Of a stretch of 64,000 nucleotides of DNA, positions 2,406 through 54,040 are shown piece by piece. This DNA comes from Malacoraja senta (lineage: Eukaryota). Position 1 is the first letter of the stretch; every line of letters begins with the position of its first letter. The stretch lies in NCBI GenBank assembly GCA_038087875.1, contig CM075988.1, forward strand, positions 4,030,001 to 4,094,000. The letters run 5' to 3'. A program made the position numbers and the translations under genes. The notes beneath the pieces are model-generated. The model did not search any database. It was given only the letters and a program-made list of their open reading frames with translations, and had not been told where the DNA came from.

Positions 2406-2969
2406 TTGTGCCTGAACAAATAGTTGTTTTTTTATAAAATGGTAGACAGAAGAATAAATAAGGGGAAAGCAATGAATGCAATTCATTCAGACCTTCATAA
2501 CGTCTTTATAATGAGCCACAAACGAGGTTATTAATCTAACTAAGAGGTCACGTTATTGGGGGTGTTATACTGCATGGATTGAAGATTCACTGACAGACAG
2601 AAACATAGCAGAGGGGTAAATGGGACACAGCATGCTGGAGTAACTCAGCGGGTCAGACAGCAGCCCGAGAGAACATGGATAGGTGACGTTTAGAGTCGAT
2701 CCTCTTCCTCAGACTCTTGTGAGGAACAATGGAGGGCTGTATAGGGGGGACTGCAGGTGCTGGTTTACATCGAGATAGACACAAAATACTAGAGCAACTT
2801 AGCAGGACAGACAGCATCTCTGGAGAGAAGGATTGGGTGATGTTTCGGGTCGAGACCCTTGGGTGTTGCCTGTCCCACTGGGCTTCTCCAGCATTTTGTG
2901 TCTATCTGTAGACAGCTGGAAGAGGAGATCCCGTCTTCACGATCTCAGTCTGTTGATGATCCAGTAAAA

Positions 2970-3583
2970 CACACAAACGCCTCTACTTCATTAGAAGATA
3001 AAGAAATTCAGCGCGTCCCCCACAACTCTCACCAACTTCTACAGATGCACCACAGAAAGCAATTTATCGGGATGCATCACAGCACGGTTTGGGAACAGCT
3101 CCATCTAAAACTGCAAGAAATTGTAGAGAATTGTGGACGCAGTGTAGAACATCACACAAACCAACCTCCCTTCCATTGACTCCATCTACACTTCACGCTG
3201 CCTCGGCAAGGCCAGCAGCATAATCAAGGACCAGTCGCACCCCGTTCTCCCTTCAGGCAAGAGGTACTAAAGTGTGAAAACGCACACCTCCAGATTCAGG
3301 GACAGTTTCTACCCAGCCGTGATCAGGCAACTGAACCATCCTACAACCAACTAGAGCGTGGTCCTGACCTGCTATCTATCTCTATTAAAGACCATTGGAC
3401 TATCTTTAATCGAACTTTACTGGACTTTATCTTGCACTAAACATTATTCACGTTATTCCCTTTAACATGTATCTGTACACTGCGGACGCTCGATTGTAAT
3501 CATGTATAGTCTTTCCGCTAACTAGTTGACACGCAACAAAAAGCTAATCACTGTACCTCGGTACACATGACGATAAACTAAAC
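2970..3583 (+). mobile_element. Rex1/Babar-like LINE 3' fragment
   Basis: Degenerate C-terminal motifs (QRLYF..., SIIKD..HP, RFRDSF) and 3' tail gtacctcggtacacatgacgataaactaaac. Confidence 0.75.
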
Positions 3584-10565: not shown

Positions 10566-11059
10566 TCAAAAACTAGATTGGTTGGCAAGTCAAACTAACC
10601 AATACCAGCAACCTGTCCCAGACCAACATGCCAGCACTGAGGCACCATTGCATGTTCTCTTGCTGGAGAACATGCGTGAACGAGATCAACATCAGATTCT
10701 TACAACAGAACTCTGCTAAGCCAAGAAATTACTCAGTGAACAGGGAAAAGAACCCAAGGATAGTCAGCAAAGATTCTTGAACATCCTTTTTATCTTGGAA
10801 GAGGGGTATGTAGGATAGTGCTGAGCCTGAGTCCATGCATAAGGGGTAGGGAGAAGCTCAGAGTATATGGCGGGACTATACCGCCCATAAACTAGCACCA
10901 TGCACAGTGAGGGCCTCGTAGAAGCTTGTGTAGAAAGGAACTGCAGAAGCTGGTTTAAACCGAAGATAGACACAAAAAACTGGAGTAACTCAGCGGGACA
11001 GACAGTATCTCGGGAGAGAAGGACTTGGACAACAAAAATTCATAGGTCAGGCTGTTATT

Positions 11060-12204
11060 CATCGATTACAGCTCGGCATTTAATACAATCATCCCCTCCA
11101 AGCTGGTTACCAAACTCGCAGAACTGGGTCTCTGCACATCCCTCTGTAATTGGATCCTCGACTTCCTCACTCTCAGACCACAGTCTGTTCGTATTGGTGG
11201 AAATGTGTCAGACTCGATAACAATCAGCACGGGAGCACCTCAAGGCTGCGTGCTCAGCCCCCTGCTATACCCACTCTATCCTCATGACTGCGTAGCCGGT
11301 CATAGTGCGAACTCCATCATCAAGTTCGCTGACGACACCACTGTTGTGGGACGTATCACTGATGGGGATGAGTCAGAGTATAGAAGAGAGATCGAGCAAC
11401 TGTCCATATGGTGCCAGCACAATAACCTGGCCCTCAACACCAGCAAAACCAAGGAACTGATTGTGGACTTTGGAAGGAGTAGGATGGGGACCCACAGTCC
11501 CGTTTATATCAACGGGTCGATGGTTGAAAGGGTCAAGAGCTTCAAATTCCTGGGCGTGCACATCTCTGAAGATCTTTCCTGGTCCGAGAACACTGATGCC
11601 ATTATTAAGAAAGCACATCAAAGCCTCTACTTCCTGAGAAGATTACGGAGAGTCGGTTTGTCAAGGAGGACTCTCTCTAACTTCTATGGGTTCACAGTAG
11701 AGAGCATGCTGCATCGTGGCTTGGTTCGGCAACGAGCGCCCTGGAGAGGAAAAGACTACAAAAAGTAGTAAACACTGCCCAGTCCATCATCGGCTCTGAC
11801 CTCCCTTCCATCGAGGGGATCTATCACAGTCGGTGCCTCAAAAAGGCTGGCATTATCATCAAAGACCCACACCATCCTGGCCACACACTCATCTCCCTAC
11901 TACATTCAGGTAGAAGGTACAGGAGCCTGAAGACTGCAACAACCAGGTTCAGGAATAGCTACTTCCCCACAGCCATCAGGCTATTAAATCTGGCTCGGTC
12001 AGAACTCTGAACTTTAATAGGCCATTAACTGTTGTTTGCACTTGATCAGCTTATTTATTCATGTGTGTATATATTTATATAATGGTATATGGACACACTG
12101 ATCTGTTTTGTAGTCAATGCCTACTATATTCTGTTGTGCTGAAGCAAAGCAAGAATTTCATTGTCCTATCAGGGACACATGACAATAAACTCACTTGAAC
12201 TTGA
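11060..12204 (+). mobile_element. Rex1/Babar-like LINE, RT to 3' end
   Basis: [46 protein letters not shown]; tail gacaataaactcacttgaacttga. Confidence 0.9.
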
Positions 12205-12693: not shown

Positions 12694-13824
12694 CTAGCAG
12701 AATTGGGAGAATTCAACGTTCAGGCCACCAGGATGTAGACTGCCCAAGCGGAATATGAGGTGCATTTCCTCCAATTTACGGTGTTGCTCGCTGTGGCCAT
12801 GGAGGAGACCCAGGACAGAGAGGTCAGATACGGAATGGGAGGGGGAGTTGAAGTGCTGAGCCACCGGGAGTTCAGGTTGGTTATTGCGGACCGACCGGAG
12901 GTGTTCGGCGAAACGATCGCCAAGCCGCCGCTTGGTCTCACCGATGTAGATCAGCTGGCATCTAGAGCAGCGAATGCAATAGATGAGGTTGGAGGAGATG
13001 CAGGTGAACCTCTGTCGCACCTGGAACGACTGCTTGGGTCCTTGAATGGAGTGGAGGGGGGAGGTGAAGGGACAAGTGTTGCATCTCTTGCGGTTGCAAG
13101 GGAAAGTACCAGGGGAGGGGGTGGTATGGGAGGGAAGGGAAGAATTGACAAGGGAGTTACGGAGGGAGCGGTCTTTGCGGAAGGCAGACATGGGGGGAGA
13201 TGGGAAGATGTGGCGAGTGGTGGGGTCACATTGGAGGTGGCGAAACTGACGGAGGATCACTTGATGTATGTGACGGCTGGTGGGGTGAAAGGTGAGGACT
13301 AGGGGGACTCTGCCTTTGTTGTGAGTGGGGGGATGGGGAGAGAGAGCAGTGTTGCGGGGTATGGCAGAGACCCTGGTGCGAGCCTCATCTATGGTGGAGG
13401 AGGGGAACCCCCGTTCCCTGAAGAATGAGGACATTTCAGATGCCCTGGTGTGGAACGCCTCATCCTGGGAGCAGATGCGGCGTAGACGGAGGAATTGGGA
13501 GTGGGGGATGGAGTCCTTACAGGAAGCAGGGTGGGAAGAAGTGTAGTCCAGATAACCATGGGAGTCGGTAGGTTTGTAGTGGATGTCGGTAAGGAGTCTA
13601 TCACCTGCGATGGAGATAGTGAGGTCAAGGAATGGTAGGGAAGTGTCGGAAATGGTCCAGGTGTATTTGAGTGCCGGATGGAAGTTGGTGGTGAAGCGGA
13701 TGAAGTCAGTCAGTTGTGTGTGGGTGCAGGATGTGGCACCAAAACAATCATCGATGTAGCGGAGGTAGAGGTCGGGGATGGGGCCCTGGTACGCATTGAA
13801 CAAGGATTGTTCTACGTACCCGAC
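12694..13824 (-). CDS. Penelope RT C-terminus/thumb plus GIY-YIG endonuclease (partial, no stops)
   Basis: Penelope-derived part of the 482-aa ORF; the upstream part is antisense CR1. Confidence 0.88.
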   Translation of the reverse strand, partial: VGYVEQSLFNAYQGPIPDLYLRYIDDCFGATSCTHTQLTDFIRFTTNFHPALKYTWTISDTSLPFLDLTISIAGDRLLTDIHYKPTDSHGYLDYTSSHPASCKDSIPHSQFLRLRRICSQDEAFHTRASEMSSFFRERGFPSSTIDEARTRVSAIPRNTALSPHPPTHNKGRVPLVLTFHPTSRHIHQVILRQFRHLQCDPTTRHIFPSPPMSAFRKDRSLRNSLVNSSLPSHTTPSPGTFPCNRKRCNTCPFTSPLHSIQGPKQSFQVRQRFTCISSNLIYCIRCSRCQLIYIGETKRRLGDRFAEHLRSVRNNQPELPVAQHFNSPSHSVSDLSVLGLLHGHSEQHRKLEEMHLIFRLGSLHPGGLNVEFSQFC

Positions 13825-15729
13825 AGTAGGCATGCAGGTGCAGCAGGCAGTGAAGAAAGTGAATGGTATGTTGGCCTTCATAGCAAGAGGATTTGAGTAT
13901 AGGAGCAGGGAGGTTCTACTGCAGTTATACAGGGTCTTGGTGAGACCACACCTGGAGTATTGCGTACAGTTTTGGTCTCCAAATCTGAGGAAGGACATTA
14001 TAGCCATAGAGGGAGTGCAGAGAAGGTTCACCAGACTGATTCCTGGGATGTCAGGACTTTCATATGAAGAAAGACTGGATAGACTTGCCTTATACTCGCT
14101 AGAATTTAGGAGATTGAGAGGGGATCTTATAGAAACGTACAAAATTCTTATGGGGTTGGACAGGCTAGATGCAGGAAGATTGTTCCCGATGTTGGGGAAG
14201 TCCAGGACAAGGGGTCACAGCTTAAGGATAAGGGGAAATCCTTTAAGACCGATATGAGGAAAAACTTTTTCACACAGAGAGTGGTGAATCTCTGGAACTC
14301 TCTGCCACAGAGGGTAGCTGGGGCCAGTTCATTGGCTATATTTAAGAGGGAGTTAGATGTGGCCCTTGTGGCTAAAGGGATCAGGGGTATGGAGAGAAGG
14401 CAGGTACGGGATACTGAGTTGGATGATCAGCTATGATCAGCTATGAATGGCGGTGCAGGCTCGAAGGGCCGAATGGCCTACTCCTGCACCTATTTTCTAT
14501 GTATCTATGTATCTATGTATCTATCTCACCGGAGCTTGTTAACTCACCTTCCGCAGCCAATAATGGGCCATTTTGTGCTCCGTTTCAGTTCAGTTTATTG
14601 TCACGTGTACTGAGGCACAGTGAAAAGCTTGGGCTCCACCTTTCCTGAGGTCAGCGATCGCTAGTCCTGATTTGTCCTGGCCTTTTCATGCCTCCATTTT
14701 CCCCTCACCTTTATCCCCTGAAGAAGGGTTCTGACCTGAAACGCCACCTATTCCTTTTCTCCAGAGATGCTGCCCAACCCGCTGAATTACTCCACTATTT
14801 TGTGTCTATTTTCGGTGTATCTGCAGTTCCTTCGTACACATTTCTTCAAAAACATATTTTGAGGAGATTTAACCGTGGAGCTATAAAAAAGCAGAATCAG
14901 GAAACTGCAGATACTGGAATCTTTAATGGCTAAAATTTATAGCAAAACCTATTTAAAGTGTTCCTGATATATTTTAATGCTTTAATATTGTTGCAGTAAA
15001 GGGACAGTATTGTATAGATTGTAAACGTTAAGATATTGACTGTAAAGCAACTATTACAATGAAGATCAAGACGCAATTCACAATATTCAGTGAATCAAAA
15101 ATAATATGTACAAAGAATGTACTGAACCAGAATTATGTGTAAAACCTGTAGGATGTGAATGTTCAGGTCAGCAATTTAGACAGTTTGTGAGTCTGATGTT
15201 TGTGTGAGGACATCGACAGTCTGGGACAGAACAAGTACAGATAAGTTGGCACAGCGGCAGAGCTGCTGCCTCACCAGAGACCTGGGTTCTATTCTGACCT
15301 CGGGTGCGGTGGGGGGAACGGTGAAACAAAGGGCCTGCTTCCGTGCTGTATCTCTAAACTAAACATAGTTCAGCTATATCGAACGTTTCCATAACGTTGA
15401 GTGGATATTAATTGACTGTGGTATGAGTGAACCCTATTTGGATTATGTGGGCTGAACTGGTTATAACACAAGCAGACAGATACAAAAAGCTGGAGTAACT
15501 CAGTGGGTCAAGCAGCATCTCTGGAGAAAAGGTGATGTTTCGGGTCGAGACCCATCATCAGACTGGGTCTTATATCACAAGTATAATGGTTATATTCATA
15601 AGGGTTCTCACAACACAATTTGTTTGGGATATAGAGAACCAGTTAAGGTAAACACAAAGTGCTGAAGTAACTCACGGGGTGAGGCAGCATCTCTGGAGAA
15701 CATGGATAGGTGACGTTTAGTATACTTAA

Positions 15730-15824: not shown

Positions 15825-16384
15825 TTTAGTATACTTAAAGATACTTTGGAAATTGATAAACAGGAAAAATAGCTGTCCTGATAAAAAAAACAGACAATTT
15901 TCGTCCAAAAATAACTGTTTCCAAGGACACCATCTCTCAAGAACACAGCTGCTAAATGACAGTGGAAGGCCATTGAAATTGATAAGACATCACTTCTATT
16001 GACACATGTGAAATGATAATCTATTAAACAACACATCACACAGCCTGTAGTATTTAACACAAATAAACATAGTGATTAAAAAGGCCTTGATTTTGAAAAT
16101 CTGTGGAGAGAAATAAATTTGTTTGACAGTCTGCAGGTCAGGCAGCAAAGTCAATGTCAGAGCACTGAACACTGGTCGAGCCCCAAACCCATCTTTCTCA
16201 TTGACAGCATTATATTTACAAGGCCACTTTCTGTAACATGAGGTTTCTTTGGAATGCAATTGTTATTATAGACACAGGAACTGTAGATGATGGTTTTCAG
16301 TCAGACAGAAGGGACCCAAAACATCGTCTATCAATGTTCATCGGAGATGCGGCCCCACCCGCTGAATTACTTTGTGTCTGTATA

Positions 16385-16616
16385 ATAGAAACATAGAAAC
16401 ATAGAAACATAGAAAATAGGTGCAGGAGGCCCTATTTGGCCCTTCGAGCCAGCACCGCCATTCATCATGATCATGGCTGATCATCCTCAATCAATAACCC
16501 GTGCCTGCGTTCTCCCCATATCCCTTGATTCCACTAGCCCCTAGAGCTCTGTCTAACTCTCTCTTAAATCCATCCAGTGATTTGGCCTCCACTGCCCTCT
16601 GTGGCAGGGAATTCCA
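16385..16616 (-). mobile_element. CR1 3' end abutting the gap
   Basis: WNSLPQRAVEAKSLDGFKRELD; (TTTCTATG)n tail. Confidence 0.88.
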
Positions 16617-16816
16617 NNNNNNNNNNNNNNNNNNNNNNNNNNNNNNNNNNNNNNNNNNNNNNNNNNNNNNNNNNNNNNNNNNNNNNNNNNNNNNNNNNNN
16701 NNNNNNNNNNNNNNNNNNNNNNNNNNNNNNNNNNNNNNNNNNNNNNNNNNNNNNNNNNNNNNNNNNNNNNNNNNNNNNNNNNNNNNNNNNNNNNNNNNNN
16801 NNNNNNNNNNNNNNNN
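16617..16816. other. Assembly gap (200 N)
   Basis: Run of N; true size unknown. Confidence 1.
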
Positions 16817-21047: not shown

Positions 21048-22010
21048 GGTACACAAAAATGCTGGAGAAACTCAGCGGGTGCAGCAGCATCTATGGAGCG
21101 AAGGAAATAGGTAACGTTTCGGGCCGAAACCCTTCTTCAGACTGATAGGGGGTGGGGAGAAGAAAGGAAAAAAGGAAAAAGGCGGAGGAGGAGCCCGAGG
21201 GCTGGGGGAGGGGAGGAGAGAACCAGATGGCTGATGAAGGGGAGGGGACAGCAAGGGCTAGCAGAATTGGGAGAATTCAATGTTCAAGCCCCCAGGATGT
21301 AGACTGCCCAAGCGGAATATGAGGTGCATTTCCTCCAATTTACGGTGTTGCTCGCTGTGGCCATGGAGGAGACCCAGGACAGAGAGGTCAGATACGGAAT
21401 AGGAGGGGGAGTTGAAGTGCTGAGCCACCGGGAGTTCAGGTTGGTTATTGCGGACCGACCGGAGATGTTCGGCGAAACGATCGCCAAGCCTCCGCTTGGT
21501 CTCACCGATGTAGATCAGCTGGCATCTAGAGCAGCGAATGCAATAGATGAGGTTGGAGGAGATGCAGGTGAACCTCTGTCGCACCTGGAACGACTGCTTG
21601 GGTCCTTGAATGGAGTAGAGGGGGGAGGTGAAGGGACAAGTGTTGCATCTCTTGCGGTTGCAAGGGAAAGTACCAGGGGAGGGGGTGGTATGGGAGGGAA
21701 GGGAAGAATTGACAAGGGAGTTCTGGAGGGAGCGGTCTTTGCGGAGGGCAGACATGGGGGGAGATGGGAAGATGTGGAGAGTGGTGGGGTCACGTTGGAG
21801 GTGGCGAAACTGACGGAGGATCACTTGTTGTATGTGACGGCTGGTGGGGTGAAAGGTGAGGACTAGGGGGACTCTGCCCTTGTTGTGAGTGGGGGGATGG
21901 GGAGAGAGAGCAGTGTTGCGGGGTATGGCAGAGACCCTGGTGCGAGCCTCATCTATGGTGGAGGAGGGGAACCCCGTTCCCTGAAGAATGAGGACATTTC
22001 AGATGCCCTG
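21048..22010 (-). mobile_element. Penelope-like element, second young copy
   Basis: Near-identical to 12485-13450; GIY-YIG ORF 21258-21824; hammerhead-like core 21113-21140; 11-bp TSD gtttagaggca at 21037-21047 and 22011-22021. Confidence 0.95.
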
Positions 22011-29211: not shown

Positions 29212-32154
29212 GAAACCCACGCAGTCACAGGGAGAACATGCAAACTCCACACATATAGCACCCGAGCTCGGGATCGAACCCGGGTCTCTGGCACTGTAAG
29301 ATGGCAGCTTTATCGCTGCATCAATGTGCCGCCTATCACTGAGAGAGGGTGCACACTGACCATGGTGGTAGGGGTTTCCCACCCACTACCAGAGGGTGGG
29401 GTTCCACACTGATGACCTTTGGGAAAAAAACACACACCAACTACTTTAGTTTAGAGATTTTAGTTTAGAGATAGAGAGTGCAGAAACAGGCCCACTGAGT
29501 CCATACCGACCAGCGATCCCACACACTAGGGACAAATTACAATCTTTACCAAAGCCAAATAACCTACAAACCTGTACGTCTTTGGAGTGTGGGAGGAAAC
29601 CGGAGCTCCTGGATAAAACCCATGAGGTCGCAGGGAGAACGTGCAAACACAATACAGACAGCACAGTCGGGTCATAGTCAGGTTCGAATCCGGGGCTCTG
29701 GCGCTGTAAGGCAGCAACTCTACCGCCGTGCCAGCCTGAACTGTCTCAGCTGCTGTTGAGAGATGCTCCACATCCTCAGAATAAAAAGACGCGCTTTTCA
29801 GAATGGAGAAGAGGAAGAATGTCTTTAGCCAGAGGGTGGCGAATCTGTGGAATTCATTGCCACATACAACTGTGGAGACCAAGTCATTGGGTACTTTAAA
29901 GCGGAGATTGATAGGTTCTTGATTAGTATGAATGTCAAAGGTTACGGGAGGAAGGCATAGGAGCATGGGGTTGAGTGGGAAAGATAGATCAGCCATGATC
30001 AAATGGCAGAGCAGACTCGTTGCAGATAGCAAATTGTCGCTAGTGTGTAGGATAGTGCTAGTGTACGGGGATTGCTGGTCGGCATTGACTCCGTGGGCCG
30101 AAGGGCCTGTTTCCGCACAGTATCTCTAAACTAAAACCTCTCAACTAAATTCTATTTCGATGTCTTATGGCCTTTTGTCACTCACTATCAGTGCAAGACC
30201 CACACAACCTCTTCTAGTAGGAGCGCTTGCAGATTGATTGCTGTGCATATGGCACCACAACGAAAGTACCTCGGTACATGTGACAATAAACTAAACTAAA
30301 CTAAAGAATGCTATCAGGTGAGGCTCCACTGGCAGCCAGAGGCTGATGCTCCACGCCAGGTGCTACCAGGTGCTGGTCCACACTGGACACAGGGTGAGGC
30401 ACGCCTTGGGCAACCAGTAGGTGAGGCAGTACCCTGGTCGCCAACCTTGACAATCTAGAGAAGCCCTTCGGAGAGGGAAGAGGGAAAAGGACATGTCCTT
30501 ATGTTAGAAACTCATGAATGTCATTATTTAAGTCCATCAGCTTTTGAAATCAATGTGTCAGCACTCACTACTTTTGTTCTCCAAACCTTTCTCCATTTCC
30601 CATTTTAACAGAAAGGTTAGTCGGCTTAAAATAGTGATATCTCACAATGTATGCCAACAGGCAGAGGGAAATCCATGCCTGCTGATTGGATCCTTAATCT
30701 GCATCAGAGATGAAAGACCAAATACAGAATCGTTCAAAATAAGGAATAATCTGATACATGTAACTGTAAAAGCCCTCAATTTGTTGGGCGGCACAGTGGC
30801 GCAGCGGTAGAGTTGCTGCCTTACATCGCAGGGCTGCCAACATTGGGTGAGAGTTGGGAGTGAGAAATTGCGAGAGACCAAGCCCATGGGAGTGTAGCTA
30901 CTGAGGTGGGGGGGGGGGGGGCTTTTGCATTTTTCAGCTTGAAATTGTGCAATCTGGTGCATACTGTAGCGAGTCTTTTAACTTACACTTGAATGCAATA
31001 TTTATGCTTTAAATTGGATTAGCTATGAATAAGGTTAGGCTAAATTACATTCCACAGTAGAGCCAGGCTCTGATCAACAGGTGCAGCACGAATGATCTTA
31101 ATGCATTAATGTATGGAAATCAGATTATAATCAAGCACTTGGCCCATGTTGACCAACCTGGGTCTCAGTGCACACCTGGTACTACTCCTGACCCTGACTC
31201 CAGTTGCATACCTTCTCTTATTCCTGACCCTGAGTCCAGTCTTACACCTGCCCCATATTCTACCCTGATCATAGCTGCTTACCTGCTTAGGTTCCCAGTT
31301 CTGAACACTCCCATTGACCCAGCTTTGACTGCACACCCAGTACTATTCCAGACCTTGACTCTGGATGCACACTTGGCCTTTCTCCTAGTCCCTCTGCACT
31401 GATAATACATCCGGCCCACACATAACGCCCCATATCTGATGCCCTGGACTTAACCTATTACGTTCAAGTCCACAGGTGCTTCTTTAATGCGGTAATCCTT
31501 TATGGGGCACTTCACGGACCAAATTTTGTATAACAAAATTTGCTACATCCAATGGCTTCCTTGTTATCTAACATGCTAGTTACTTTGTCAAAGAAGTCAT
31601 CAATTGGTTGAACACAATTTCTCATCCATAAAATTATATTCACTCAGCTGTATAAGTATTCTGTTACTAGTTCCTTCATTTTCCTAACAAACTGTCCTGA
31701 AGTCATTTTCACCCCCAATATTTTCAGTATTTTGCTGTCTGCCTCTCAGCTGGGACTTTTCCGAAATGCAAATTCCAATAACTATATATTTAAGCAATAA
31801 TATTCTATTTAATGTGATCTTGAGAGTACATAATATTTTCTGTGGTATTCATAACACAACAATGATAAAAAGATCTTTGTTTTGATTGCACCTACCAACA
31901 TGCATAGATTATTATTTTACAGTTAATAAATACCGAGGGCAAATTTTTGTTCCAATGCTCCCTATTCCCAATTACTTTTTCATTGAAGTGATTGAAATCC
32001 AAGTGAAGTTGAAATGGCATCATAAAAATGAAACCTCCGGAATGGATGATATTCATTACGTGCTTGTTTGGAGCCAGTATCAGCACAATTACTATATTAA
32101 ACTTTGAATCTTCAAATGTCATGGTTCAAGCTAAAACTAAAGACAAATAATAAC

Positions 32155-32277
32155 CTTCTCACATTCCCCTGCAAGTATCTCTGTCACTCCTTTAAAATAT
32201 GCCCCTTCTTTGAACAAGTTCTTAAACATCGCATCTGAATCAGCTTCCATCTGATTACACTCCTTGAGGATGTTCAT
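32155..32277 (-). pseudogene. Captured 123-nt exon-like segment of an unidentified gene
   Basis: ag|ATG...AAG|gt, phase 0-0, open frame MNILKECNQMEADSDAMFKNLFKEGAYFKGVTEILAGECEK, within AT-rich flanks. Confidence 0.45.
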
Positions 32278-32952
32278 CTACGTGTTAATTAATAAAACAA
32301 TGAGATTGGGGACATTTCTATTCAACCTGTCAGAGGAATTTGGGGGGGGGGGGGGTTAGAAATAGTCAGTGAGGTAAACAAACGTAATAGTTGAGTGGCA
32401 AATGACAATAGTGCTACCTTCCCAATATTTAACTGAAGGAAATAATGGGTTATCGGGGCTGTATGTTGTGGCAGACAGCCTGACACCTTGCATGTCATTT
32501 TAATATTACACTTATCCCATCCCCCTGGATATTCCGGAATAATAAATTAAGATTTTGTCAACTAATTACAAATCAGGCTAATTACAAATCAATAACATTA
32601 GCTAACTCCGAAACACGAAGCGCTGAGCATTGGGATCCAGACATCATGGACAACTGGCCTCAGTTCCCCGCTCACATCTGGCAGTGCTCTCCATCTGAAC
32701 CAGGGGCTGCAGAGCGTTTTTGAAAGCGGGGGGGGGGGGGGGGCTGAGCGATCACTGATCACTGGCCTTGGGGGTACCCGACGAGGGAGTGGAGCAACCG
32801 AGTGGTGGGAGGGTGCGGGAGGGGGAATTTTTGAAATTTGATTTATTAAAATCATGTTTTAGTGCATTGTAGAAGTATGATTTCAATGTTTTTTGCTTCA
32901 AGTATTTTTAAGAGGTAACTTTTTAAGGGGTAACTTTTTCCACACACACATC

Positions 32953-33203
32953 CTGGTTGTCCTCCAGGATGCACCGAGCCGCAGCCTGGTCCATGCCGGT
33001 CACCAGGGTGAATTCGGCACAGAGACTCTCACGGCAATGCTTCCGACGCCTCCGGAGGTCCGGGACTCTTGTACTGAGGCTGCTCCATGGCCGGAGCTGC
33101 AGTGAGCGACTCGCCAGCCCGGCAAACACTCGCCAGCCCGGCAAGCACTCTCCAGCCCCTGCTCCCCATCCGCATCTGCCCCCGCCACTGCTTCTGCTTC
33201 CAT
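32953..33203 (-). pseudogene. TDP2: Captured tyrosyl-DNA phosphodiesterase 2 exon-1-like fragment (N-terminal UBA-like motif), frameshifted and truncated
   Basis: RESLCAEFTLVTGMDQAAARCILEDNQ (32953-33033) aligns with the human TDP2 N-terminus as recalled (RRLLCVEFASVASCDAAVAQCFLAEND). GC-rich, with an ATG at 33203 (MEAEAVAGADADGEQG) in another frame. Confidence 0.72.
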
Positions 33204-34254
33204 CCCTCCCTCCACCCCGGCTCTCCAACACCCGTGGCCCATGCAGTTGATATTAGTTTTGAAATTGTCGTTGATCACAGAATTTCTCACGACAGAGCAT
33301 GAGAAACTCTGTGATCAGCGTGAGAGCATGAGAATTGTGCAAAATGCGTGAGTCTCAATGTGTAAGAGTTGGCAGCTCTGCATCACTTACAGTACCAGAG
33401 ACCCGGGTTCGATCCTGACTATGTGTGCTGTCTGTACGGAGTTTATACGTTCTCCCAGTGACCACGTGGGTTTTCTCCGGGTGCTCCAGTTTCCTCATAC
33501 ATTGCAAGGACGTGAATTGGCTTGGTATAAATGTAAAAATTGTCCCGAGTTTGTGTAGGATAGTGTCAGTGTGTGGGGATCGCTGGTCAGTGCAGACTCG
33601 GTGGGCCAAAGGGCCTGTTTCCGCACTCTATCGCTAAACTAAAATAAATTAAACTAAAACATATTCTGACACTGTGCTATGAGTAACAGATTTTGAAGAC
33701 TTGAGCAACAAATCAATTCTGGTATTTGTTTTAAATATATAATCTTCCTGCATGACCAGTTTTTCAAAAATTATATTTTAATATATTGTGGCTTGGCTTC
33801 GAGCAGGAATGAAATATGATCATTCATCAATTGAGGCAGAATCACTAACTCAAGTGGAATGAGGTTTTGAGTGAATTACAGTCATTAACTTCCTATTTTG
33901 CTACCTCACATAGCTTACACTGAATGGGTGGTTTAAGAATTGGATTGTTCAGCCATTGATTTTTATTTAGGTTTATTTTGTTTGACTGTTGACGGACAAA
34001 AGATGGTTTAATAATACTCCTTATTATTGCATCGGCACTCCATCTCACTGATTTTGGTTATTTGTAAGGCACTTAACTGGGGTTAAATATTAACTACAAT
34101 TGAGACTCACAAACCACATTGTAGTCTGGCTGGCCAGCTGGCTGGAGTGAGAGGAGATGTTTGCAATATCTGAGATTGAGGGGTTCAGTCAGAGTATGGA
34201 GTGCTCAGTTTAGTTTATTGTCACGTGTACCGAGGTACAGTGAAAGGCAGCGGC

Positions 34255-36040: not shown

Positions 36041-37984
36041 GGTGTTTATCTGTCGGGAGAATCGAGAACCAGGTTTTAAAGTTTAAAGTACTGGTCATCC
36101 TTTAAGATTGGGAAGAAGCATTATTTTCCATCAGACTCTTTGACACTTTGGATTTCTTCCTCTGAGACAAGTGGAAGCAGAGTCTTAGTATTTTTAAGAC
36201 AGAGGTTAATAGACTCCTGATAAGCAAAGTAGGGGGTGGGGGGCAAGAGGATGTGTGGGGGTGGGGGGGGGGGGGAAAGAGGGAAGGTGATTTGGGGTCA
36301 CAAACAGTTCAGCAATTATCTCTTTAAATGGTGGAGCAATCTCGAGGGGCCGAGTGGTCTGTTCCTCGATCGTAGAACATAGAATAGTACAGCATATGAA
36401 CTGGCCCTTCAGCCCACAAGGTGCCAAACATAACGTCAATTATCTTGTTGAGTCTCATTGTCTGTATCTCATTTCCACATAACCCACAGCTAGCAATGGC
36501 CTCTCTCCTTTATCATTGTTATTTTTTTGCATATCTTTCATTCATTTGTTCTCTATTTCTCGTTTCCCTTTCCCCCGACGCTCAGTCTGAAGAAAGGTCG
36601 TGACCCGAAACGTCATCTAATCCTTTTCTCCAGAGATGTTGTCTGACCCGCTGAGTAACTCCAGCATTTTGTGTCTATCTTCGGTTTAAACCAGCATCTG
36701 CAGTTCCTTCCCACACATGCACATATGTCTGCACATCTGCACATATCCCTCCATTTTCTGTAATTCCATGTGCCTGTCAAAAAGCCTCTTGAATGCCACT
36801 ATCATATTAGCTTCTACCACCATCCTTGGCTGTCGGTTTCTGGCACCAACCTCCTTCTATGTAAAGGAACTTGCCCTGCACATCTCTTTTAAACATTGCC
36901 CCTTTCACTTTAAAGATGTAGTACAACGAGAAAAACAAATCTGCAATCCTTATTGCAATCGAGGCAGTTCATAGCTGAGAGTTTAGTTGGAGTTCGTGGT
37001 GTTCGCTCGCCTAATGGTTGTTGGGAAGACGCTGCTCTTGAACCTGGACTTGAACCAGTTTTCAGATTCCTTTACCTTCTTCCCGATGGCAGGAGTGAAA
37101 TGAGAGTTTGACCAGGCTGGTTGAGTTTAGTTTAGAGATACAGTACGCAAACTAGCCCTTCGGCCCACCGAGACCGCACCGACCCGCGATCCCCGCACAT
37201 TAACACTATCCGACACACGTGAGAGGCAATTTTACATTTATACCAAACCAATTAAACTACAAACCTGTATATCTTTGGAGTGTGGGAGGAAACCGAAGAT
37301 CTCGGAGAAAACCCATGTGATCATGGGATGGACATACAACCTCCATACAGACAGCACCTGTAGTCAGGATCGAACCCGGTTCTCCGGTGCTGTAAGCGCT
37401 GTAGGGCAGCAAATCTACCATTACGCCACCATGCTGCTGGTGTGCGTCTGTGACAATGTGAATTGTCTTTCTGAAACAGCGCCTCCAGTAGACCCCTTCA
37501 ATGGTGGGGAGGTCAGTGATGGACTGGGCAGTGTTCACCACTATTTGAGTGGTGAAAACAAGAGGAGGGGCCACATTTATCTGGCCTTGTGAGTACTCAG
37601 GAACATGTGGCTCGAGTAACTTGGTTTGGAGAGTGCTGAGTGTGAGGCTCATTCTCTGGTAGTCTTCAGTGAACAAGTCTTCTATGACTACTATCCACAT
37701 ACAGGGTGGCGCGTATATGCAACGAGCTGTCAGAGGAGGCCGTTGAGGCAAGTACTAAAACAAAATTTAAAAGACACTTGGACAAGAACATGGACAGGAA
37801 AGGTTTGTAGGGTTATGGGCCGTATGCAGGCAGGTTGGACTAGCGCAGATGGGGAATCTTGGCCGGCATGGACAGGTTGGGCCGAAGGGCCTGTTTCTGT
37901 GCTGTATAACTCTATGACTTGGAACTTGGTTTCTAACCTTGTCATCGAGGGTATTGAGAGGGACACTGAAAGCAGGTCCAGAAA

Positions 37985-38250: not shown

Positions 38251-41200
38251 AATCAGGGGTACCAACTCCTGGAGTCATGGCAGAAAACTGCAGACAACTA
38301 GATTAACTTACTTGCAGTCCAGATTTGCGAAAAAATAATTTTGGTTAGTGACGGGAGTCTAAAGGTTGATTTTATTTTTCCTAAACATAATTAGGTTCTG
38401 CAGTTAGCATTTAACAATGTTAATCTTGTAATCAAGTCAAATGGTGCACGTGAATAGTACAGAGGCAGCCTTCTCCTGGCATGTGTGCAGTTAATTATGA
38501 GGTTATTTGAACTTGTACTTGGCAATTACAGTCAGTGGGAGTAGGGTCAGACCTGTGGCCGCCTTGCAACACATAAATATGGAAGGATTTGACGACCAAT
38601 ATCAGCATGTGGTATTGCATCCCAAGTAGGCTGAACCTGGCACTTGGCAAGGGAACAATTCGATGCAGTGGAGATGTGGGATACGGTCTGTTTTCTACCA
38701 AAAGAGTCACGTGGGTGGTTCTAGGTGGTTCTAAAGGATCAAGGTTTAAAACTGATAAAGAAACAGAAGAAGAAGGTTTTGGAAATTCAGTGTGTGATAT
38801 TGCAGAAAGGTGAGGATGGAGATGCAAAGAACTGCAGATGCTGATTTAAAAAACAAAAACACAAAGTGCTGGAGTAACTCAGCGGGTCAGGCAGTGTCTC
38901 TGGGGGACATGGATGGGTAATGTTTTTGGGCCAGATCCTTTCTTCAGTTTATGTGTAAGAAGGAACTGCAGATGCTGCTTTAAACCGAATAGAGAGACAA
39001 AAACCAGTACCCCGTTCCTGCTCTTTCCCCATATCCCTTGATTCCGTTAGCCCTAAGAGCTATGTCTAACTCTCTCTTGAATACATTGCGAGATGTATTA
39101 CAGATCCTGGAATCTGACGGTCAGAAAGAGTATGTCCATCGGTGGGTCAGCATCTGTGGAGAAGGAAACCAAGCTGACTATTCACCAAAGCTGATGTTAG
39201 CCACATTCCCCACACCACAAAAGCTGCTTGATCAGCTGAGTATTTCAGGAATGTGGACACAAGGTGTCAGGCAGCATCTCTGAGAAAAGGAACAAGCGAC
39301 ATTTTGGGTTGACTTGATACATGTAGAAAGCCACCGATGGGCGCTGAGATAAGATTGGATTTCTGTAATCACATTTAATTGCGCAAGAGACAGAACTAAC
39401 TTTGCGAACCTTCCAACCCAACTCAGGGTGCAGCTCCTGCAGTTTAGTTTAGTTTAGTTTTAGTTTAGAGATGCAGCTCGGAAACAGGCCCTTCAGTCCA
39501 CCGAGTCCACACCGACCAGTGATCCCCACACATTAACACTATCCAACACACACTAGGGACAATTTACACAGGCACCAAGCCAATTCTACAGGCCTGTACG
39601 TCTTTGGAGTGTGGGAGGAAACCGAAGATCTCGGAGTAAACCCACGTGGTCACGGGGAGAACATACAAACTCCGTACAGACAGCACCCATAGTTGGGATC
39701 GAACCCGCGTCTCTGGAGCTGCATTCGTTGCAAGGCAGCAACTCTACCGCTGCGCCACCGTCGCCACCCACATGAACAAAGGGTGATTATCCTCATCTAT
39801 AACTCACTTGGAGTTTATCTTGTATCTGCCCACCACGGTCTATTTTTGATATCATGGGAACCACTGCTGGCTGAATACTTGATCATAGTCAGAGAGACCT
39901 ACAGCCTTTAGCAATTCGAGAGACAGAACATTACCTGTTGGGAGAATAATGAGGAGAAAAATTGACCTGGAGCACTGGAAGCTATTGATGGTCCATTCCC
40001 ATTCCCTCTGCGAGCCTACCAACCAAACACCATTGTATTCTCCATTGTGCAGTGAAACTCATGCTCCAAGGCATAGTGCTGAGTCCAACAATTTAGCCTC
40101 TCATGGAAACAGGCCCTTCAGCCCAACTTGCCTACACCAGCCAACATGTCCTCATCTACACTAGACCCACCTGTCTGCGTTTGGCCCATATCCCTCTAAA
40201 CCTGTCCAATCCATGTACCTGTCTAAATGTTGCTTAAATGTTGTGACACAACCTGCCTCAACTATCTCCTCAGGCAGCTCGTTCCATACACCCACCGCCC
40301 TTTGTGTGAAAGAGTTACCTCTCAGGTTCCTATCATATCTTTCACCCCTCACCTTAATCCTATGTCCTCTGGTTCTTAATTCCCCTACTCTGGGCAAGAG
40401 TCTCTGTGCGACTACTCAATCTGTTCATCTCATGATTTTGTACACCTCAATAAGGTCACCCCTCATCCTCCTGCGCTCCAAGGAATAGAGTCCCAGCCTA
40501 CGGAACCTCTCCCTATAGATCTGTATTTGGTCTAGATACTATCAACATTTTATGGGGGGGGGGGGGGGGCTTGCATTTGTTCACCTTCACTACAATGCAC
40601 AGGCCTGGAGTAATCATGGTATCTGGTTTAATTTGTATGTGGGCTTTTTGCCCTGTCTTACCTGCTCATGATTTTTTGAAAAACTCTGTGTATTACACTT
40701 AAAACTCACAGTGGCGCAGCGGTAGAGTTGCTGCCTTACAGTGATAACTGCACGAGAGACTTGGATTAAATCCTGGCTATGGGTGCTTGTCTGTACAGAG
40801 TTTGTATGTGACCGCCTGGGTTTTCTCTGAGAATTTTGGTTCCCTCCCACCACAAAGATGTACAGGTTTGCAGGTTGATTGGCTTGGTATAAATGTAAAA
40901 ATTGTCCCTAGTGTAGGATGGTGTTAATGTACGGGGTTCACTGGTCCATGCGAACTCGATGGGCCGAAGGGCATGTTTCAGCGCTGTATCTCTAAACTAA
41001 ACTAAACAACCTAGATTGAAACAAAGTGCTGGAGTAACTCAGTGCGACAGGCAGCATCTCTGGAGAGAAGGAATGGGTGACGTTTCGGGTTGAGATCCTT
41101 CTTCAAACAACCTAGGCTGTGATTACAAAGCAATTAGTCGGAACACATTCTTCCAATCCGCTATTAATTCTGTAGTCCAATCCATCCTGAACAGAGATGA

Positions 41201-52204: not shown

Positions 52205-54040
52205 GTTCAGTTCAGTTCCGTTTATTGTCACGTGAACCGAGGTACAGTGAAAAGCTTTTGTTGCACGCTAACCAGTCAGCACAAAGACAATGCATGGTAA
52301 CAATTGAGCTATTTACAGTGTACAGACACATGATAAGGAAATAATGTTTAGTGCAAAGTAAAGCCAGCAAAGTCCGATCAAAGATAGTTCGAGCGTCATC
52401 AATGAGGTAGATAGTAGTTCAAGACTGCTCTCTGGTTGTAGTAGGATGGTTCAGTTGCCTGATAACAGCTGGGAAAAAACTGTCCCTGAATCTGGAGGTG
52501 TGCGTTTTCACAATTCTGAACCTTTTACCGATGGGAGAGGGGAGAAGAGGGAGTGGCCAGGGTGTGACTTGTCCTTGATTATCCTGCTGCACTTGTCGAG
52601 GCAGCGTTAGGTATAAATGGGGTCAATGGAAGGGAGGTTGGTTTGTGTGATGGTCTGGGCTGTGTCCACAATTTGCTGCAATTTCTTGCATGTTGAGTCT
52701 TGGATGGAGCTGTTCCCAAACCAAGCTGTGATCATCCCATAGAAACATAGAAACATAGAAAATAGGTGCAGGACTAGGCCATTCGGCCCTTCGAGCCTGC
52801 ACCGCCATTCAATATGATCATGGCTGATCATCCAACTCAGTATCCTGTACCTGCCTTCTCTCCATACCCCCTGATCCCTTTAGCCACAAGGGCCACATCT
52901 AACCCCCTCTTAAATATAGCCAATGAACTGGCCTCAACTACCTTCTGTGGCAGTGAATTCCAGAGATTCACCACTCTCTGTGTGAAAAATGTTTTTCTCA
53001 TCTCGGTCCTAAAAGATTTCCCCTTTATCCTTCAACTGTGACCCCTTCCCTAACATCGGGAACAATCTTCCTGCATCTAACCTGTCCAACCCCTTAAGAA
53101 TGTTGTAAGTTTCTATAAGATCCCCCCCTCAATCTTCTAAATTCTAGCCGAGTCTATCCAGTCTTTCTTCATATGAAAGTCCTGACATCCCAGGAATCAG
53201 TCTGATGAACCTTCTCTGTACTCCCTCTATGGCAAGAATGCCCTTCCTCAGATTAGGAGATCAAAACTGTACGCAATACTCCAGGTGTGGTCTCACCAAG
53301 ACCCTGTACAACTGCAGTAGAACCTCCCTGCTCCTATACTCAAATCCTTTTGCTATGAATGCTAACATACCATTCGCTTTCTTCACTGCCTGCTGCACCT
53401 GCATGCCTACTTTCAATGACTGGTGTACCATGACACCCAGGTCTCGTTGCATCTCCCCTTTTCCTAATCGGCCACCATTCAGATAATAGTCTACTTTCCT
53501 GTTTTTGCCACCAAAGTGGATAACCTCACATTTATCCACATTATACTGCAGCTGCCATGGTTTTGCCCACTCACCCAGCCTATCCAAGTCACCTTGCAGC
53601 CTCCTAGCATCTTCCTCACAGCTAACACTGCTCCCCAGCTTCGTGTCATCCGCAAACTTGGAGATGTTGCATTCAATTCCCTCGTCCAAATCATTAATAT
53701 ATATTGTAAATAGCTGGGGTCCCAGCACTGAGCCTTGCGGTACCCCACTAGTCACTGCCTGCCACTCTGAAAAGGACCCGTTTACTCCTACTCTTTGCTT
53801 CCTGTTTGCCAGCCAGTTCTCTATCCAACTATCCCGATAAAATGCTTTCTGTGGTGCATCTGTAGAAGTTGGTGAGAGTTGTTGGGGACATGCCGATCCT
53901 CCTTAGCCTTCAAAGGAAGAAGTGGGGTTGGTGTGCTTTCTTGCTCGTTTCTTCTATATGGGTGGTCCAGGAGAAGTTGTTGGTGATATTGACTCCTAGG
54001 AATTTGAAGTTTTCAACCATCTCTACTTCGGCGCCGTCAA
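52205..54040 (-). mobile_element. Rex1/Babar-like fragment split by CR1
   Basis: Sequence resumes across the CR1; TSD atccc at 52734-52738 and 53831-53835. Confidence 0.85.
52739..53830 (-). mobile_element. CR1 LINE RT to 3' end
   Basis: SGVPQGSVLGP, SKFADDTKL, RPHLEYCVQF; (TTTCTATG)n tail. Confidence 0.94.

What the first reader, a model, noticed from the sequence alone, without database searches (positions are those of the whole stretch)
30829..33380. Pack-type DNA transposon carrying captured pieces of host genes
Seen: 13-bp TIRs with subterminal gtgaga repeats bracket 2.55 kb that interrupts an otherwise contiguous HE1 SINE, so the interior arrived as one insertion. The interior has no transposase. 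It is a patchwork of intron-like DNA with an old CR1 remnant (about 31480-31700), an exon-like segment, a second transposon-like left end at 32701, poly-G runs and a GC-rich TDP2-like exon. Known: Pack-MULEs in plants and Pack-TIRs in animals carry gene fragments this way. Inference: this is a gene-fragment-shuffling element family in a cartilaginous fish, which I do not know to be described.
Basis: partly seen in the sequence, partly recalled or inferred. Interest (0 to 1): 0.85.

Follow-up and report, generated by a model that had tools for sequence, protein, structure and literature searches.

The report
Transposon family carrying a TDP2 gene fragment
This is a shortened copy of a cut-and-paste DNA transposon present about 1,700 times in this cartilaginous-fish genome, and the family has picked up and spread the start of the host DNA-repair gene TDP2.

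Summary
Window 30829-33380 is bounded by 13-nt terminal inverted repeats (TIRs). It has RTGAGA repeats next to both ends and splits a tRNA-derived SINE. No transposase domain was found.

It is one internally deleted copy (2,552 nt) of a family whose fuller copies are 3.1-3.4 kb. The left-end 32-mer occurs 1,698 times in the genome, against 0 for the reversed control. Copies at unrelated sites carry 7-nt target-site duplications (TSDs).

The family carries about 1 kb copied from the host TDP2 locus on another contig. The copied stretch covers about 120 nt upstream, exon 1 (the UBA-like coding part), the splice donor and about 0.74 kb of intron 1. The captured exon decays neutrally. The left 2.1 kb has no known origin.

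The mobilising enzyme is probably a P-superfamily (THAP9-like) transposase, which I put at about 0.6. Three things point that way:
- The TSDs are 7 nt long.
- The TIR is 13 nt long and 9/13 identical to that of zebrafish Pdre2.
- The family's 19-21-nt right-end sequence sits in 171 copies of a THAP9-like gene unit.

In those units the sequence is internal and points toward the gene.

Verdict: a new member of a known kind, unusual for its copy number and superfamily.

The parts
30786..30828 (+). 5' part (tRNA-like head) of the interrupted SINE. Its last 7 nt, TACATCG (30822-30828), are the left target-site duplication.
   Evidence: Aligns with other SINE copies in the window and in L011. The name HE1 was not tested. 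HE1 is a V-SINE of shark and ray according to a passage of PMC4824008.
30829..30841 (+). Left 13-nt terminal inverted repeat, CAGGGCTGCCAAC.
   Evidence: Homology to the other copies starts exactly here. The 32-mer beginning here has 1,698 genome matches, against 0 for the reversed control.
30842..30900 (+). Left subterminal region with RTGAGA repeats (at 30847 and 30860), followed by a poly-G tract.
   Evidence: families D2, D3.
30901..32946 (.). Family-specific interior of unknown origin (element positions 73-2118). It has no long ORF and no Pfam family. It contains a degenerate 70-nt repeat (31156-31386) and a poly-G tract at 32342-32355.
   Evidence: 86-93% identical to the 40 scored copies. 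ORFs, Pfam. No match in the 30-kb TDP2 locus or in the rest of the window.
32947..32952 (.). Breakpoint of an internal deletion. Here the window copy lacks 728 nt that the fuller copies have: the last 4 codons of TDP2 exon 1, the splice donor and the intron-1 fragment with two older dispersed repeats.
   Evidence: L003 holds 728 nt between query positions 2318 and 2325. Contigs of other copies run on at 32946 into the missing repeat (table 7).
32953..33088 (-). Remnant of captured TDP2 exon 1: 136 nt from the ATG at 33088-33086 leftwards. It encodes the UBA-like N-terminus and is truncated at its 3' end.
   Evidence: Best PDB match is the TDP2 UBA domain, 6q00, E=7.8e-5. Pfam UBA_4 E=1.4e-5 for the full-length copy. 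71-79% identical to skate TDP2 proteins. Alignment with the host exon.
33089..33228 (-). Captured TDP2 leader and upstream sequence. It is GC-rich and holds a 19-nt tandem repeat (33109-33146) whose copy number varies between family members.
   Evidence: Collinear with the host locus (window-element positions 2125-2400 match locus positions 16349-16637). (family D7).
33229..33367 (+). Right subterminal region. It has RTGAGA repeats (33299, 33320, 33328 on +; 33285 on -) and a 21-nt hairpin (33269-33289 with 33300-33320).
   Evidence: pair I1. It is absent from the TDP2 locus.
33368..33380 (-). Right 13-nt terminal inverted repeat, reading GTTGGCAGCTCTG on the + strand. It has one mismatch to the left TIR. 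Most copies read GTTGGCAGCCCTG.
33381..33640 (+). 3' part of the interrupted SINE. Its first 5 nt, CATCA, are the decayed right copy of the target-site duplication.

Best explanation
Window 30829-33380 is a real insertion. It is an internally deleted, non-autonomous copy of a cut-and-paste TIR DNA transposon family.

Shown:
- The genome holds about 1,700 left ends of the family.
- Fuller copies are 3.1-3.4 kb.
- The TIRs are 13 nt, RTGAGA repeats lie next to both ends, and insertions make 7-nt TSDs.
- Full-length members carry about 1 kb copied from the host TDP2 locus: about 120 nt of leader and upstream sequence, exon 1, its splice donor and about 0.74 kb of intron 1. That intron piece includes two repeats that were already in the intron.
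- The family therefore meets the definition of a Pack-TIR.

Inferred:
- The fragment was probably copied in once, during repair of a break in an ancestral element, with the repair switching template to the unlinked TDP2 locus.
- The composite was then amplified by transposition.
- Later copies, this one among them, lost internal parts, probably through incomplete gap repair.

The cargo is a passenger, because the exon decays neutrally.

Inferred, at about 0.6: the family is moved in trans by a P-superfamily (THAP9-like) transposase. At least 150 scored, largely open copies of its gene occur in the same genome, and those units contain the family's end sequence.
For: Multicopy and mobile:
- All 40 scored copies are 86-93% identical over element positions 1-2118, from 4,572 first-look candidates.
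- The left-end 32-mer, allowing up to 3 mismatches, has 846+852=1,698 matches, against 0 for the reversed control.
- Ten short-form copies have unrelated flanks on both sides. Five have exact 7-nt TSDs (L002, L003, L020, L026, L074). One matches 5/7 (L075). The window copy keeps a 5-nt remnant. Three are unclear (L009, L014, L018).
- Of 5 copies sampled only by an exact left end, all 5 are internally deleted or truncated in different ways.

Cargo:
- The genuine gene, with downstream exons, lies on C19.
- Full-length element positions 2139-3149 (L003) or 2157-3221 (L009) are collinear with C19:4711326-4712637 at 78-83% identity. The rest of the element is absent from the 30-kb locus.
- 107 of the 113 scored TDP2 protein matches are dispersed hits to exon 1 only, from 1,701 first-look candidates.
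- Nearly all family copies lack a stretch that the host exon has and that matches residues of the Leucoraja protein. L034 keeps it. This fits transfer from host to element.

Neutral decay:
- Substitutions by codon position are 49/72/64.
- Synonymous versus non-synonymous changes are 57/120.
- The frame is broken in 11 of 28 copies.
- The host differs from the family majority by 9.9%, and copies differ from it by a mean of 4.7%.

No transposase.

P-superfamily link:
- PF21787 gave 150 scored matches, all over the cut-off, with ORFs up to 790 aa. PF21789 also gave 150.
- A THAP domain (E=1.4e-10) lies 226 nt downstream of GTGTGAGAGTTGGCA(A/G)CCCTG.
- That junction occurs 93+78=171 times, against 0 for the control. 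For the 9 listed copies compared, it lies about 1.47 kb upstream of the RNaseH_N match on the same strand.
- P-superfamily TSDs are 7 nt in Galileo and 8 nt in P (passages of PMC4168063).
- Zebrafish Pdre2 has 13-nt TIRs reading CATACCTGTCAAC, which is 9/13 identical by my comparison (passage of PMC10983969).
Against: - In the THAP9-like units the shared end sequence is not at a terminus. 32 of the 40 best matches to the 1,151-nt 5' region align straight across it. It also points toward the gene, in right-end orientation. It could therefore be an internal binding site or a nested relic of a related element, and the units' true termini and TSDs were not seen.
- The four THAP9-like copies on contig C1 have no exact left-end 32-mer within 5 kb. 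This is weak evidence, because only about 29% of left ends are exact.
- The THAP9-like copies are mostly on small contigs, and several sit in about 4.4-kb tandem spacing. This could reflect array amplification and not transposition.
- Many family copies continue past the right TIR into a shared CT-rich tract of 0.8-1 kb plus a conserved segment. The 3.3-kb TIR-to-TIR unit is therefore not the only mobile form.
- Three of ten clean copies show no readable TSD.
- The capture mechanism is inferred. No pre-capture ancestor was found, and no breakpoints with microhomology were seen.
Confidence: 0.8

Rival explanations
1. The family is a Pack-type non-autonomous element, but it is not moved by the THAP9-like transposase. 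On this reading the THAP9-like units merely contain a nested or relic end of a related CT-rich element. The true partner would be another superfamily (hAT-like or unknown), or would be extinct.
For: - The shared end is internal to the THAP9-like unit and inverted relative to the gene.
- CAG-initial TIRs also occur in hAT elements (recalled, not tested).
- hAT transposase remnants are abundant, with 1,648 first-look candidates.
Against: - Five exact TSDs are 7 nt, not the 8 nt typical of hAT (the hAT length is recalled).
- 0 of the 30 best hAT loci contain the TIR or match the element ends.
- The 19-21-nt identity recurs in 171 THAP9-like units.
- The TIR length and 9/13 identity match the zebrafish P-like element.
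Confidence: 0.25
2. The 3.3-kb TIR-to-TIR unit is a sub-part of a larger composite or foldback-type element. On this reading the original mobile unit is a long form that continues through a CT-rich repetitive arm. Short forms such as the window copy arose when an internal copy of the end sequence was used as a terminus.
For: - At least 8 copies with unrelated left flanks (6 with both ends seen, 2 seen only at the right end) share a CT-rich right flank directly after the right TIR.
- In L037 this tract is about 1,017 nt and is followed by a segment with 692 first-look candidates. That segment lies about 0.8 kb beyond the right TIR of known copies such as L004 and L013.
- Six copies have GA-rich left flanks and CT-rich right flanks, an inverted arrangement.
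- In the THAP9-like unit, CT-rich 155-nt units are tandemly repeated next to the same end sequence.
- Galileo, a P-superfamily member, has long, internally repetitive TIRs (abstracts and passages).
Against: - Short forms have clean 7-nt TSDs directly at both 13-nt TIRs, so these ends are functional termini.
- The outer end of the long form was never seen.
- The six copies with GA-rich left and CT-rich right flanks share their flanks, so they may be one locus multiplied by segmental duplication.
Confidence: 0.35
3. The direction of transfer is the reverse: host TDP2 exon 1 derives from the transposon (exaptation), with no capture by the element.
For: The homology alone does not give a direction.
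Against: - The same N-terminal UBA-like region is found in the solved TDP2 UBA structure 6q00 and in two other skates' TDP2 proteins.
- The host locus lacks the TIRs and the other 2.3 kb of the element.
- Nearly all family copies carry a deletion relative to the host exon, and the missing stretch matches residues of the Leucoraja protein.
- The element also holds intron sequence with older repeats in host order.
Confidence: 0.03
4. The feature is an assembly artefact or a segmental duplication, not an insertion.
For: No listed read-derived contig bridges either junction (table 8).
Against: - The boundaries are exact and are the same as in dozens of copies with different flanks and TSDs.
- The SINE is restored when the element is removed.
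- The unique flanks are covered without differences by contigs of run X1 (table 8).
Confidence: 0.01

Closest known systems
Pack-TIRs of animals (Tan et al. 2021, PMC8277862; passages read), the counterparts of plant Pack-MULEs
   Same: - A TIR element on both sides of a piece duplicated from a non-TE parental locus that is not linked to the element.
- The composite has transposed, as shown by distinct TSDs.
- The cargo is GC-rich, which that paper notes for multicopy Pack-TIRs.
   Different: - That survey of 100 genomes found 370 cases, mostly single-copy, and 87% were hAT or TcMariner.
- Only four multicopy families are reported in the frog and alligator reference genomes (3 and 5 copies in the two examples whose copy numbers appear in the passages I read), plus a four-copy fly family.
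- Here there are about 1,700 copies and the superfamily is probably P.
- The words 'shark' and 'cartilaginous' do not occur in that paper's main text. Its supplements were not read.
Zebrafish Pdre2 and other non-autonomous Pdre P-like elements with THAP9 (PMC10983969; passages)
   Same: - A vertebrate P-superfamily system.
- 13-nt TIRs that are 9/13 identical to this family's.
- Internally deleted non-autonomous copies alongside a THAP9-type gene.
   Different: - Pdre2 has 8-nt TSDs, and about 50 P-homologous sequences are reported.
- Here the TSDs are 7 nt and there are about 1,700 non-autonomous copies.
- Here at least 150 transposase-gene copies were scored, and the family carries host-gene cargo.
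Galileo, the foldback-like P-superfamily transposon of Drosophila (PMC4168063 passages; PMC3688188 and PMC3573991 abstracts only)
   Same: - 7-nt TSDs and a THAP-domain transposase.
- Many non-autonomous and structurally variable copies.
- Possibly long, internally repetitive arms, suggested by the CT-rich 155-nt units beside the end sequence.
   Different: - Long TIRs were not demonstrated here.
- The short form has only 13-nt TIRs.
- No gene capture is described in the Galileo passages I read.
Capture of flanking or ectopic DNA by Drosophila P elements, through end bypass and gap repair (cited in Tan et al. 2021 as refs 20 and 21; seen only as citations)
   Same: A mechanism by which a P-type element acquires foreign sequence.
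   Different: Those were laboratory events. Here the product is a fixed, amplified natural family, and the mechanism is inferred, not observed.

Membership tests
Pack-TIR (as used by Tan et al. 2021) | Recognisable TIR-element termini on both sides of the insert | tested here: met
   13-nt TIRs plus subterminal repeats at both ends, shared by all full copies examined.
Pack-TIR (as used by Tan et al. 2021) | Internal sequence duplicated from an identifiable non-TE parental locus | tested here: met
   About 1 kb is collinear with the TDP2 exon 1 region at C19:4711326-4712637, at 78-83% identity. The captured intron part itself contains older dispersed repeats.
Pack-TIR (as used by Tan et al. 2021) | Parental locus not flanked by the same TE, which excludes segmental duplication and end bypass | tested here: met
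   No match to element positions 1-2138 or to the terminal 150 nt within C19:4696001-4726000. A past element that has since excised cannot be excluded.
Pack-TIR (as used by Tan et al. 2021) | The composite has transposed: copies at unrelated sites with different TSDs | tested here: met
   Five different exact 7-nt TSDs and 1,698 left ends.
P superfamily, non-autonomous member | TSDs of 7-8 nt | tested here: met
   7 nt in 5 of 10 clean copies, 5/7 in one, none of 8 nt. The reference values come from passages.
P superfamily, non-autonomous member | Termini shared with an autonomous element that encodes a THAP plus TNP-like RNase H transposase | tested here: inconclusive
   The right-end 19-21 nt, including the whole TIR, is present in 171 THAP9-like units. 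There it is internal and inverted. The outer ends of the units were not obtained.
P superfamily, non-autonomous member | A matching transposase gene is present in the same genome | tested here: met
   PF21787 and PF21789 each gave 150 scored matches over the cut-off, with ORFs up to 790 aa. THAP domain E=1.4e-10. PF12596 gave no match.
P superfamily, non-autonomous member | Mobilisation by that transposase | not testable with these tools
   Needs an excision or transposition assay.
hAT superfamily, non-autonomous member | 8-nt TSDs (recalled as the hAT norm) | tested here: not met
   The TSDs are 7 nt. An 8-nt reading fails in L002, L003, L026 and L074.
hAT superfamily, non-autonomous member | The same TIRs on hAT transposase-bearing copies | tested here: not met
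   0 of the 30 best PF05699 loci, each with 1.5-kb flanks, contain the TIR or match the element ends. Only 30 of 1,648 candidates were looked at.
HE1 / V-SINE (the interrupted host element) | tRNA-derived head and the family's central domain | tested here: inconclusive
   It is a SINE with many copies in the window. The name HE1 was not tested against a reference sequence; only a literature passage was seen.

The most novel reading that the evidence does not exclude
Skates may harbour a recently active P-superfamily transposon system. It would include at least 150 scored THAP9-like transposase gene copies (about 300 first-look candidates) with ORFs up to 790 aa, whose 5' regions are 92-99% identical. 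Their terminal arms may be Galileo-like and internally repetitive. This system would have mass-amplified a Pack element about 1,700 times, scattering TDP2's leader, first exon and splice donor across the genome, where some copies could seed chimeric transcripts or new exons. That would be the largest Pack-TIR family known in an animal and the first tied to P elements in nature.
Probability: 0.25. Interest if true: 0.7.

Novelty: new member of a known kind. Interest (0 to 1): 0.52.

Why it matters
Gene-fragment capture by TIR transposons is well documented in plants. In the one broad animal survey I read, it is reported as rare and almost always single-copy. A family that carries a host leader, first exon and splice donor to about 1,700 sites shows that such shuffling can reach plant-like scale in a vertebrate. 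It also provides many natural experiments for exon or promoter donation.

The likely link to a P-type (THAP9-like) transposase with many open copies would matter as well. That would make skates a second vertebrate lineage, after zebrafish, in which P-element biology can be studied.

For annotation, about 1,700 TDP2 exon-1 look-alikes are a source of false gene models.

Tried and rejected
- hAT partner: the 30 best PF05699 loci contain no TIR and no match to the element ends.
- PF12596 (Tnp_P_element_C): no match anywhere, controls included, so the result is uninformative.
- Contiguity test. I asked whether the conserved segment beyond the CT-rich tail of long-form copies lies next to THAP9-like units. 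None of the 40 scored places does. They lie beside family copies instead.
- Similarity of the element to the two THAP9-like flanks fetched (2,252 nt): only the 18-21-nt end sequence matches.
- Origin of the left 2.1 kb: no match in the TDP2 locus, in the rest of the window or in Pfam. No donor was found. A genome-wide donor search is swamped by the family's own copies.
- Sequencing runs: no RNA holder is listed. In the laid contigs, no listed piece bridges either junction. The 'skip' joints have sides of 33 nt or less and come from the many intact SINE copies, so they do not show an empty site.
- The earlier-findings index had nothing for this genome.
As a result the full THAP9-like unit, the outer end of the long form and a larger TSD sample could not be obtained.
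- Literature: searches listed no paper on a TDP2-carrying transposon or on P-like elements in skates. In the listed rows, 'P element' and 'THAP9' have 0 occurrences. Repbase and Dfam could not be consulted, so an existing consensus entry cannot be excluded.

Full report
**1. The observation**

The sequence at 30829-33380 is as described.
- The ends are inverted repeats, CAGGGCTGCCAAC and GTTGGCAGCTCTG. As 14-nt arms they are 93% complementary (pair I11). The degenerate 13-mer occurs only at these two places in the 64-kb window, against 0.21 expected.
- RTGAGA motifs are concentrated next to both ends. There are 5 on the + strand in 193 terminal nt, against 0.16 expected (P=8e-7).
- The flanks are the two halves of a tRNA-derived SINE. 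When joined in a script, they align from end to end with several other SINE copies of the window.
- An alignment with six SINE copies shows that some copies carry a 9-nt duplication at exactly this place. Read against that subtype, the insertion has TACATCG on the left (30822-30828) and a decayed CATCA on the right (33381-33385).
- The name HE1 was not tested. A passage in PMC4824008 lists HE1 as the V-SINE of shark and ray.

**2. It is one copy of a large family**

- A search of the window's own 1.94-Gb assembly with the element returned 40 scored copies, 86-93% identical over element positions 1-2118, from 4,572 first-look candidates.
- Homology begins and ends exactly at the two TIRs.
- The left-terminal 32-mer, allowing up to 3 mismatches, occurs 846+852=1,698 times. 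The reversed control occurs 0 times.
- Nineteen copies with both ends measure 3,138-3,378 nt.
- Compared with them, the window copy lacks 728 nt between 32946 and 32953. Contigs from other copies run on at 32946 into the missing sequence (table 7).
- Five copies chosen only for having an exact left end were all deleted or truncated, each in a different way.

**3. Transposition signature**

Ten short-form copies have unrelated flanks on both sides.
- Five have exact 7-nt TSDs: ATAATAT, CTTAAAG, CCTTTAT, GGATACC and ATAGAAC.
- One matches 5/7.
- The window copy keeps 5 nt.
- Three (L009, L014, L018) are unclear.
- An 8-nt reading fails wherever it can be tested.

**4. The cargo**

No transposase was found. 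38 of 38 ORFs of 45 aa or more from a full copy had no transposase family in Pfam. The only meaningful hit was UBA_4.

The minus-strand ORF near the right end is TDP2-like.
- Its best PDB match is the TDP2 UBA domain, 6q00, at E=7.8e-5.
- UBA_4 scores above the Pfam cut-off for a full-length copy.
- It is 71-79% identical to TDP2 of two skates.

With the Leucoraja protein as query, the genome shows the genuine gene on contig C19. Downstream exons lie at 4674572-4698368 and an exon 1 at 4712310-4712516. In addition, 107 of the 113 scored matches are dispersed hits to exon 1 only, from 1,701 first-look candidates.

Aligning full copies to C19:4696001-4726000 shows collinearity from C19:4711326 to 4712637, at 78-83% identity.
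- The shared stretch covers about 120 nt upstream of the ATG, exon 1, the splice donor and about 0.74 kb of intron 1. It runs across two older dispersed repeats that lie in that intron.
- Element positions 1-2138 and the last 150 nt or so have no counterpart in the locus.
- Nearly all family copies lack a stretch that the host exon has and that matches residues of the Leucoraja protein. One copy, L034, keeps it.
- I therefore read the direction as host to element.

The window copy retains 136 nt of the exon (32953-33088) and the leader (to about 33228). It has lost the last four codons, the donor and the intron piece.

**5. The cargo is a passenger**

I compared 28 copies with their majority sequence. 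The five segmental duplicates of L016 and the host sequence were left out.
- Substitutions fall 49/72/64 on codon positions 1, 2 and 3.
- Single-change codons are 57 synonymous against 120 non-synonymous, and the random expectation is 22% synonymous.
- Three changes create stops.
- 11 of 28 copies have a frame-breaking length.
- The host segment differs from the family majority by 9.9%, and copies differ from it by a mean of 4.7%.
- I see no sign of selection on the captured exon.

**6. Who moves it**

hAT was the first guess. The 30 best hAT-dimerisation loci show neither the TIR nor any match to the element ends, and the TSD is 7 nt.

A P-type transposase is abundant in this genome.
- PF21787 and PF21789 each gave 150 scored matches over the cut-off, with ORFs up to 790 aa.
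- I fetched 1,151 nt upstream of one 769-aa ORF. It reads as CT-rich repeats, then GTGTGAGAGTTGGCAACCCTG, then 226 nt, then a THAP-domain exon at E=1.4e-10.
- That 21-mer is the family's right end.
- The 41-nt junction occurs 93+78=171 times, against 0 for the control. Most of the listed copies carry the exact TIR. For the 9 listed copies compared, the junction lies about 1.47 kb upstream of an RNaseH_N match on the same strand.

The literature read in passages agrees with a P-superfamily assignment.
- Galileo makes 7-nt TSDs and P makes 8-nt TSDs (PMC4168063).
- Zebrafish Pdre2 has 13-nt TIRs reading CATACCTGTCAAC (PMC10983969). By my comparison this is 9/13 identical to the TIR here.

**7. 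What does not fit**

- In the THAP9-like units the shared sequence is internal. 32 of the 40 best matches to the 1,151-nt probe align across it from position 1-19 to the end. In some copies the CT-rich 155-nt unit beside it is tandemly repeated.
- The shared sequence faces the gene in right-end orientation.
- Several units lie about 4.4 kb apart in tandem.
- There is also a long form of the TDP2 family.
  - At least eight copies with unrelated left flanks continue past the right TIR into a shared CT-rich tract.
  - In L037 the tract is about 1,017 nt and is followed by a conserved segment with 692 first-look candidates.
  - That segment lies about 0.8 kb beyond known copies, and not beside THAP9-like units.
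- Six further copies share GA-rich left flanks and CT-rich right flanks, and look like one locus multiplied.
- A foldback-like architecture with several usable copies of the end sequence would explain these forms, but it is not shown.

**8. Other evidence**

- Contigs of run X1 cover the unique flanks without differences. Runs of two other organisms cover them with 4-6% differences. All of these runs hold the element interior at very high summed depth, so related species carry the family too.
- No listed piece bridges the junctions, and no RNA holder was listed. Neither point is evidence either way.

**9. Comparison with what is known, and novelty**

- The family meets each criterion of a Pack-TIR as used by Tan et al. 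2021 (passages).
- That survey of 100 animal genomes found 370 cases, 87% of them hAT or TcMariner. Almost all were single-copy.
- Only four multicopy families are reported in the frog and alligator genomes. The two examples whose copy numbers appear in the passages I read have 3 and 5 copies.
- The main text of that paper does not mention sharks or cartilaginous fishes. Its supplements were not read.
- Four literature searches listed nothing on a TDP2-carrying transposon or on P-like elements in skates. Repbase and Dfam could not be checked.

I therefore rate it a new member of a known kind. It is notable for a copy number two to three orders of magnitude above the multicopy examples I read about, and for the probable P-superfamily partner.

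**10. Verdict**

- Its interpretation is supported for one captured gene fragment.
- The claims of a multi-gene patchwork and of a CR1 remnant are not supported by anything I found.
- The transposase assignment is probable but unfinished.

Noticed in passing
G000 contigs, e.g. C1:237359550-237364300 (L077, L078); places listed: A large family of THAP9-like (P-type) transposase genes. At least 150 matches were scored for each of two Pfam domains, with ORFs up to 790 aa. The 5' regions are 92-99% identical between copies. Most copies lie on small contigs, and several sit in tandem about 4.4 kb apart. The THAP domain lies in a separate ORF downstream of a splice-acceptor-like tttcag, so the gene may have introns.
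   Followed up: partly
L037 (right flank of the copy, 1,237 nt); C11:3459747-3459967; C8:54842181-54842410 and other places: A long form of the family continues past the right TIR. It runs through 0.8-1 kb of CT-rich low-complexity DNA into a conserved 186-225-nt GC-rich segment with 692 first-look candidates. Its outer end was not reached.
   Followed up: partly
L016, L019, L021-L024 (small contigs C1561, C5426, C3113, C747, C759, C2747): Six copies share the same GA-rich left flank and CT-rich right flank, an inverted arrangement. They look like one composite locus multiplied by segmental or satellite-like duplication.
   Followed up: no
L034 = G000:C5:40736262-40739453: A dispersed TDP2 exon-1 copy that keeps the host-like stretch deleted in nearly all other family copies. 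It has no exact TIR in the locus. It may be an early branch of the family or an independent duplicate.
   Followed up: no
G000:C19:4603402-4611049: A second set of TDP2 3' exons (residues 205-360, 80-85% identical to the Leucoraja protein) lies about 70 kb from the main gene on the same strand. This is a partial tandem duplicate or a paralogue.
   Followed up: no
window 33109-33146 and the aligned copies: A 19-nt tandem repeat in the captured TDP2 leader varies from about 2 to 4 units between copies. The host locus has 2.
   Followed up: no
window 11046-11768, 53261-53902; 12694-14214, 21258-21998: The surroundings are repeat-rich. There are reverse-transcriptase ORF fragments (RVT_1, E=1.6e-18 and 1.5e-15). 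Two further ORFs have weak GIY-YIG matches below the Pfam cut-off, so they may be Penelope-like elements. No host gene was recognised among the 12 long ORFs sent to Pfam.
   Followed up: partly
window 37345-37437 and 39680-39769 (SINE copies): A SINE subtype with a 9-nt duplication just after the tRNA-like head coexists with the shorter form. The element in this finding sits in a copy of the longer subtype.
   Followed up: partly
L018 (G000:C4039:28026-31899): This copy has a 9-nt direct repeat (CAGCTAACT) set one base away from each terminus, where other copies have a 7-nt TSD. Either the TSD length varies or this is chance.
   Followed up: no
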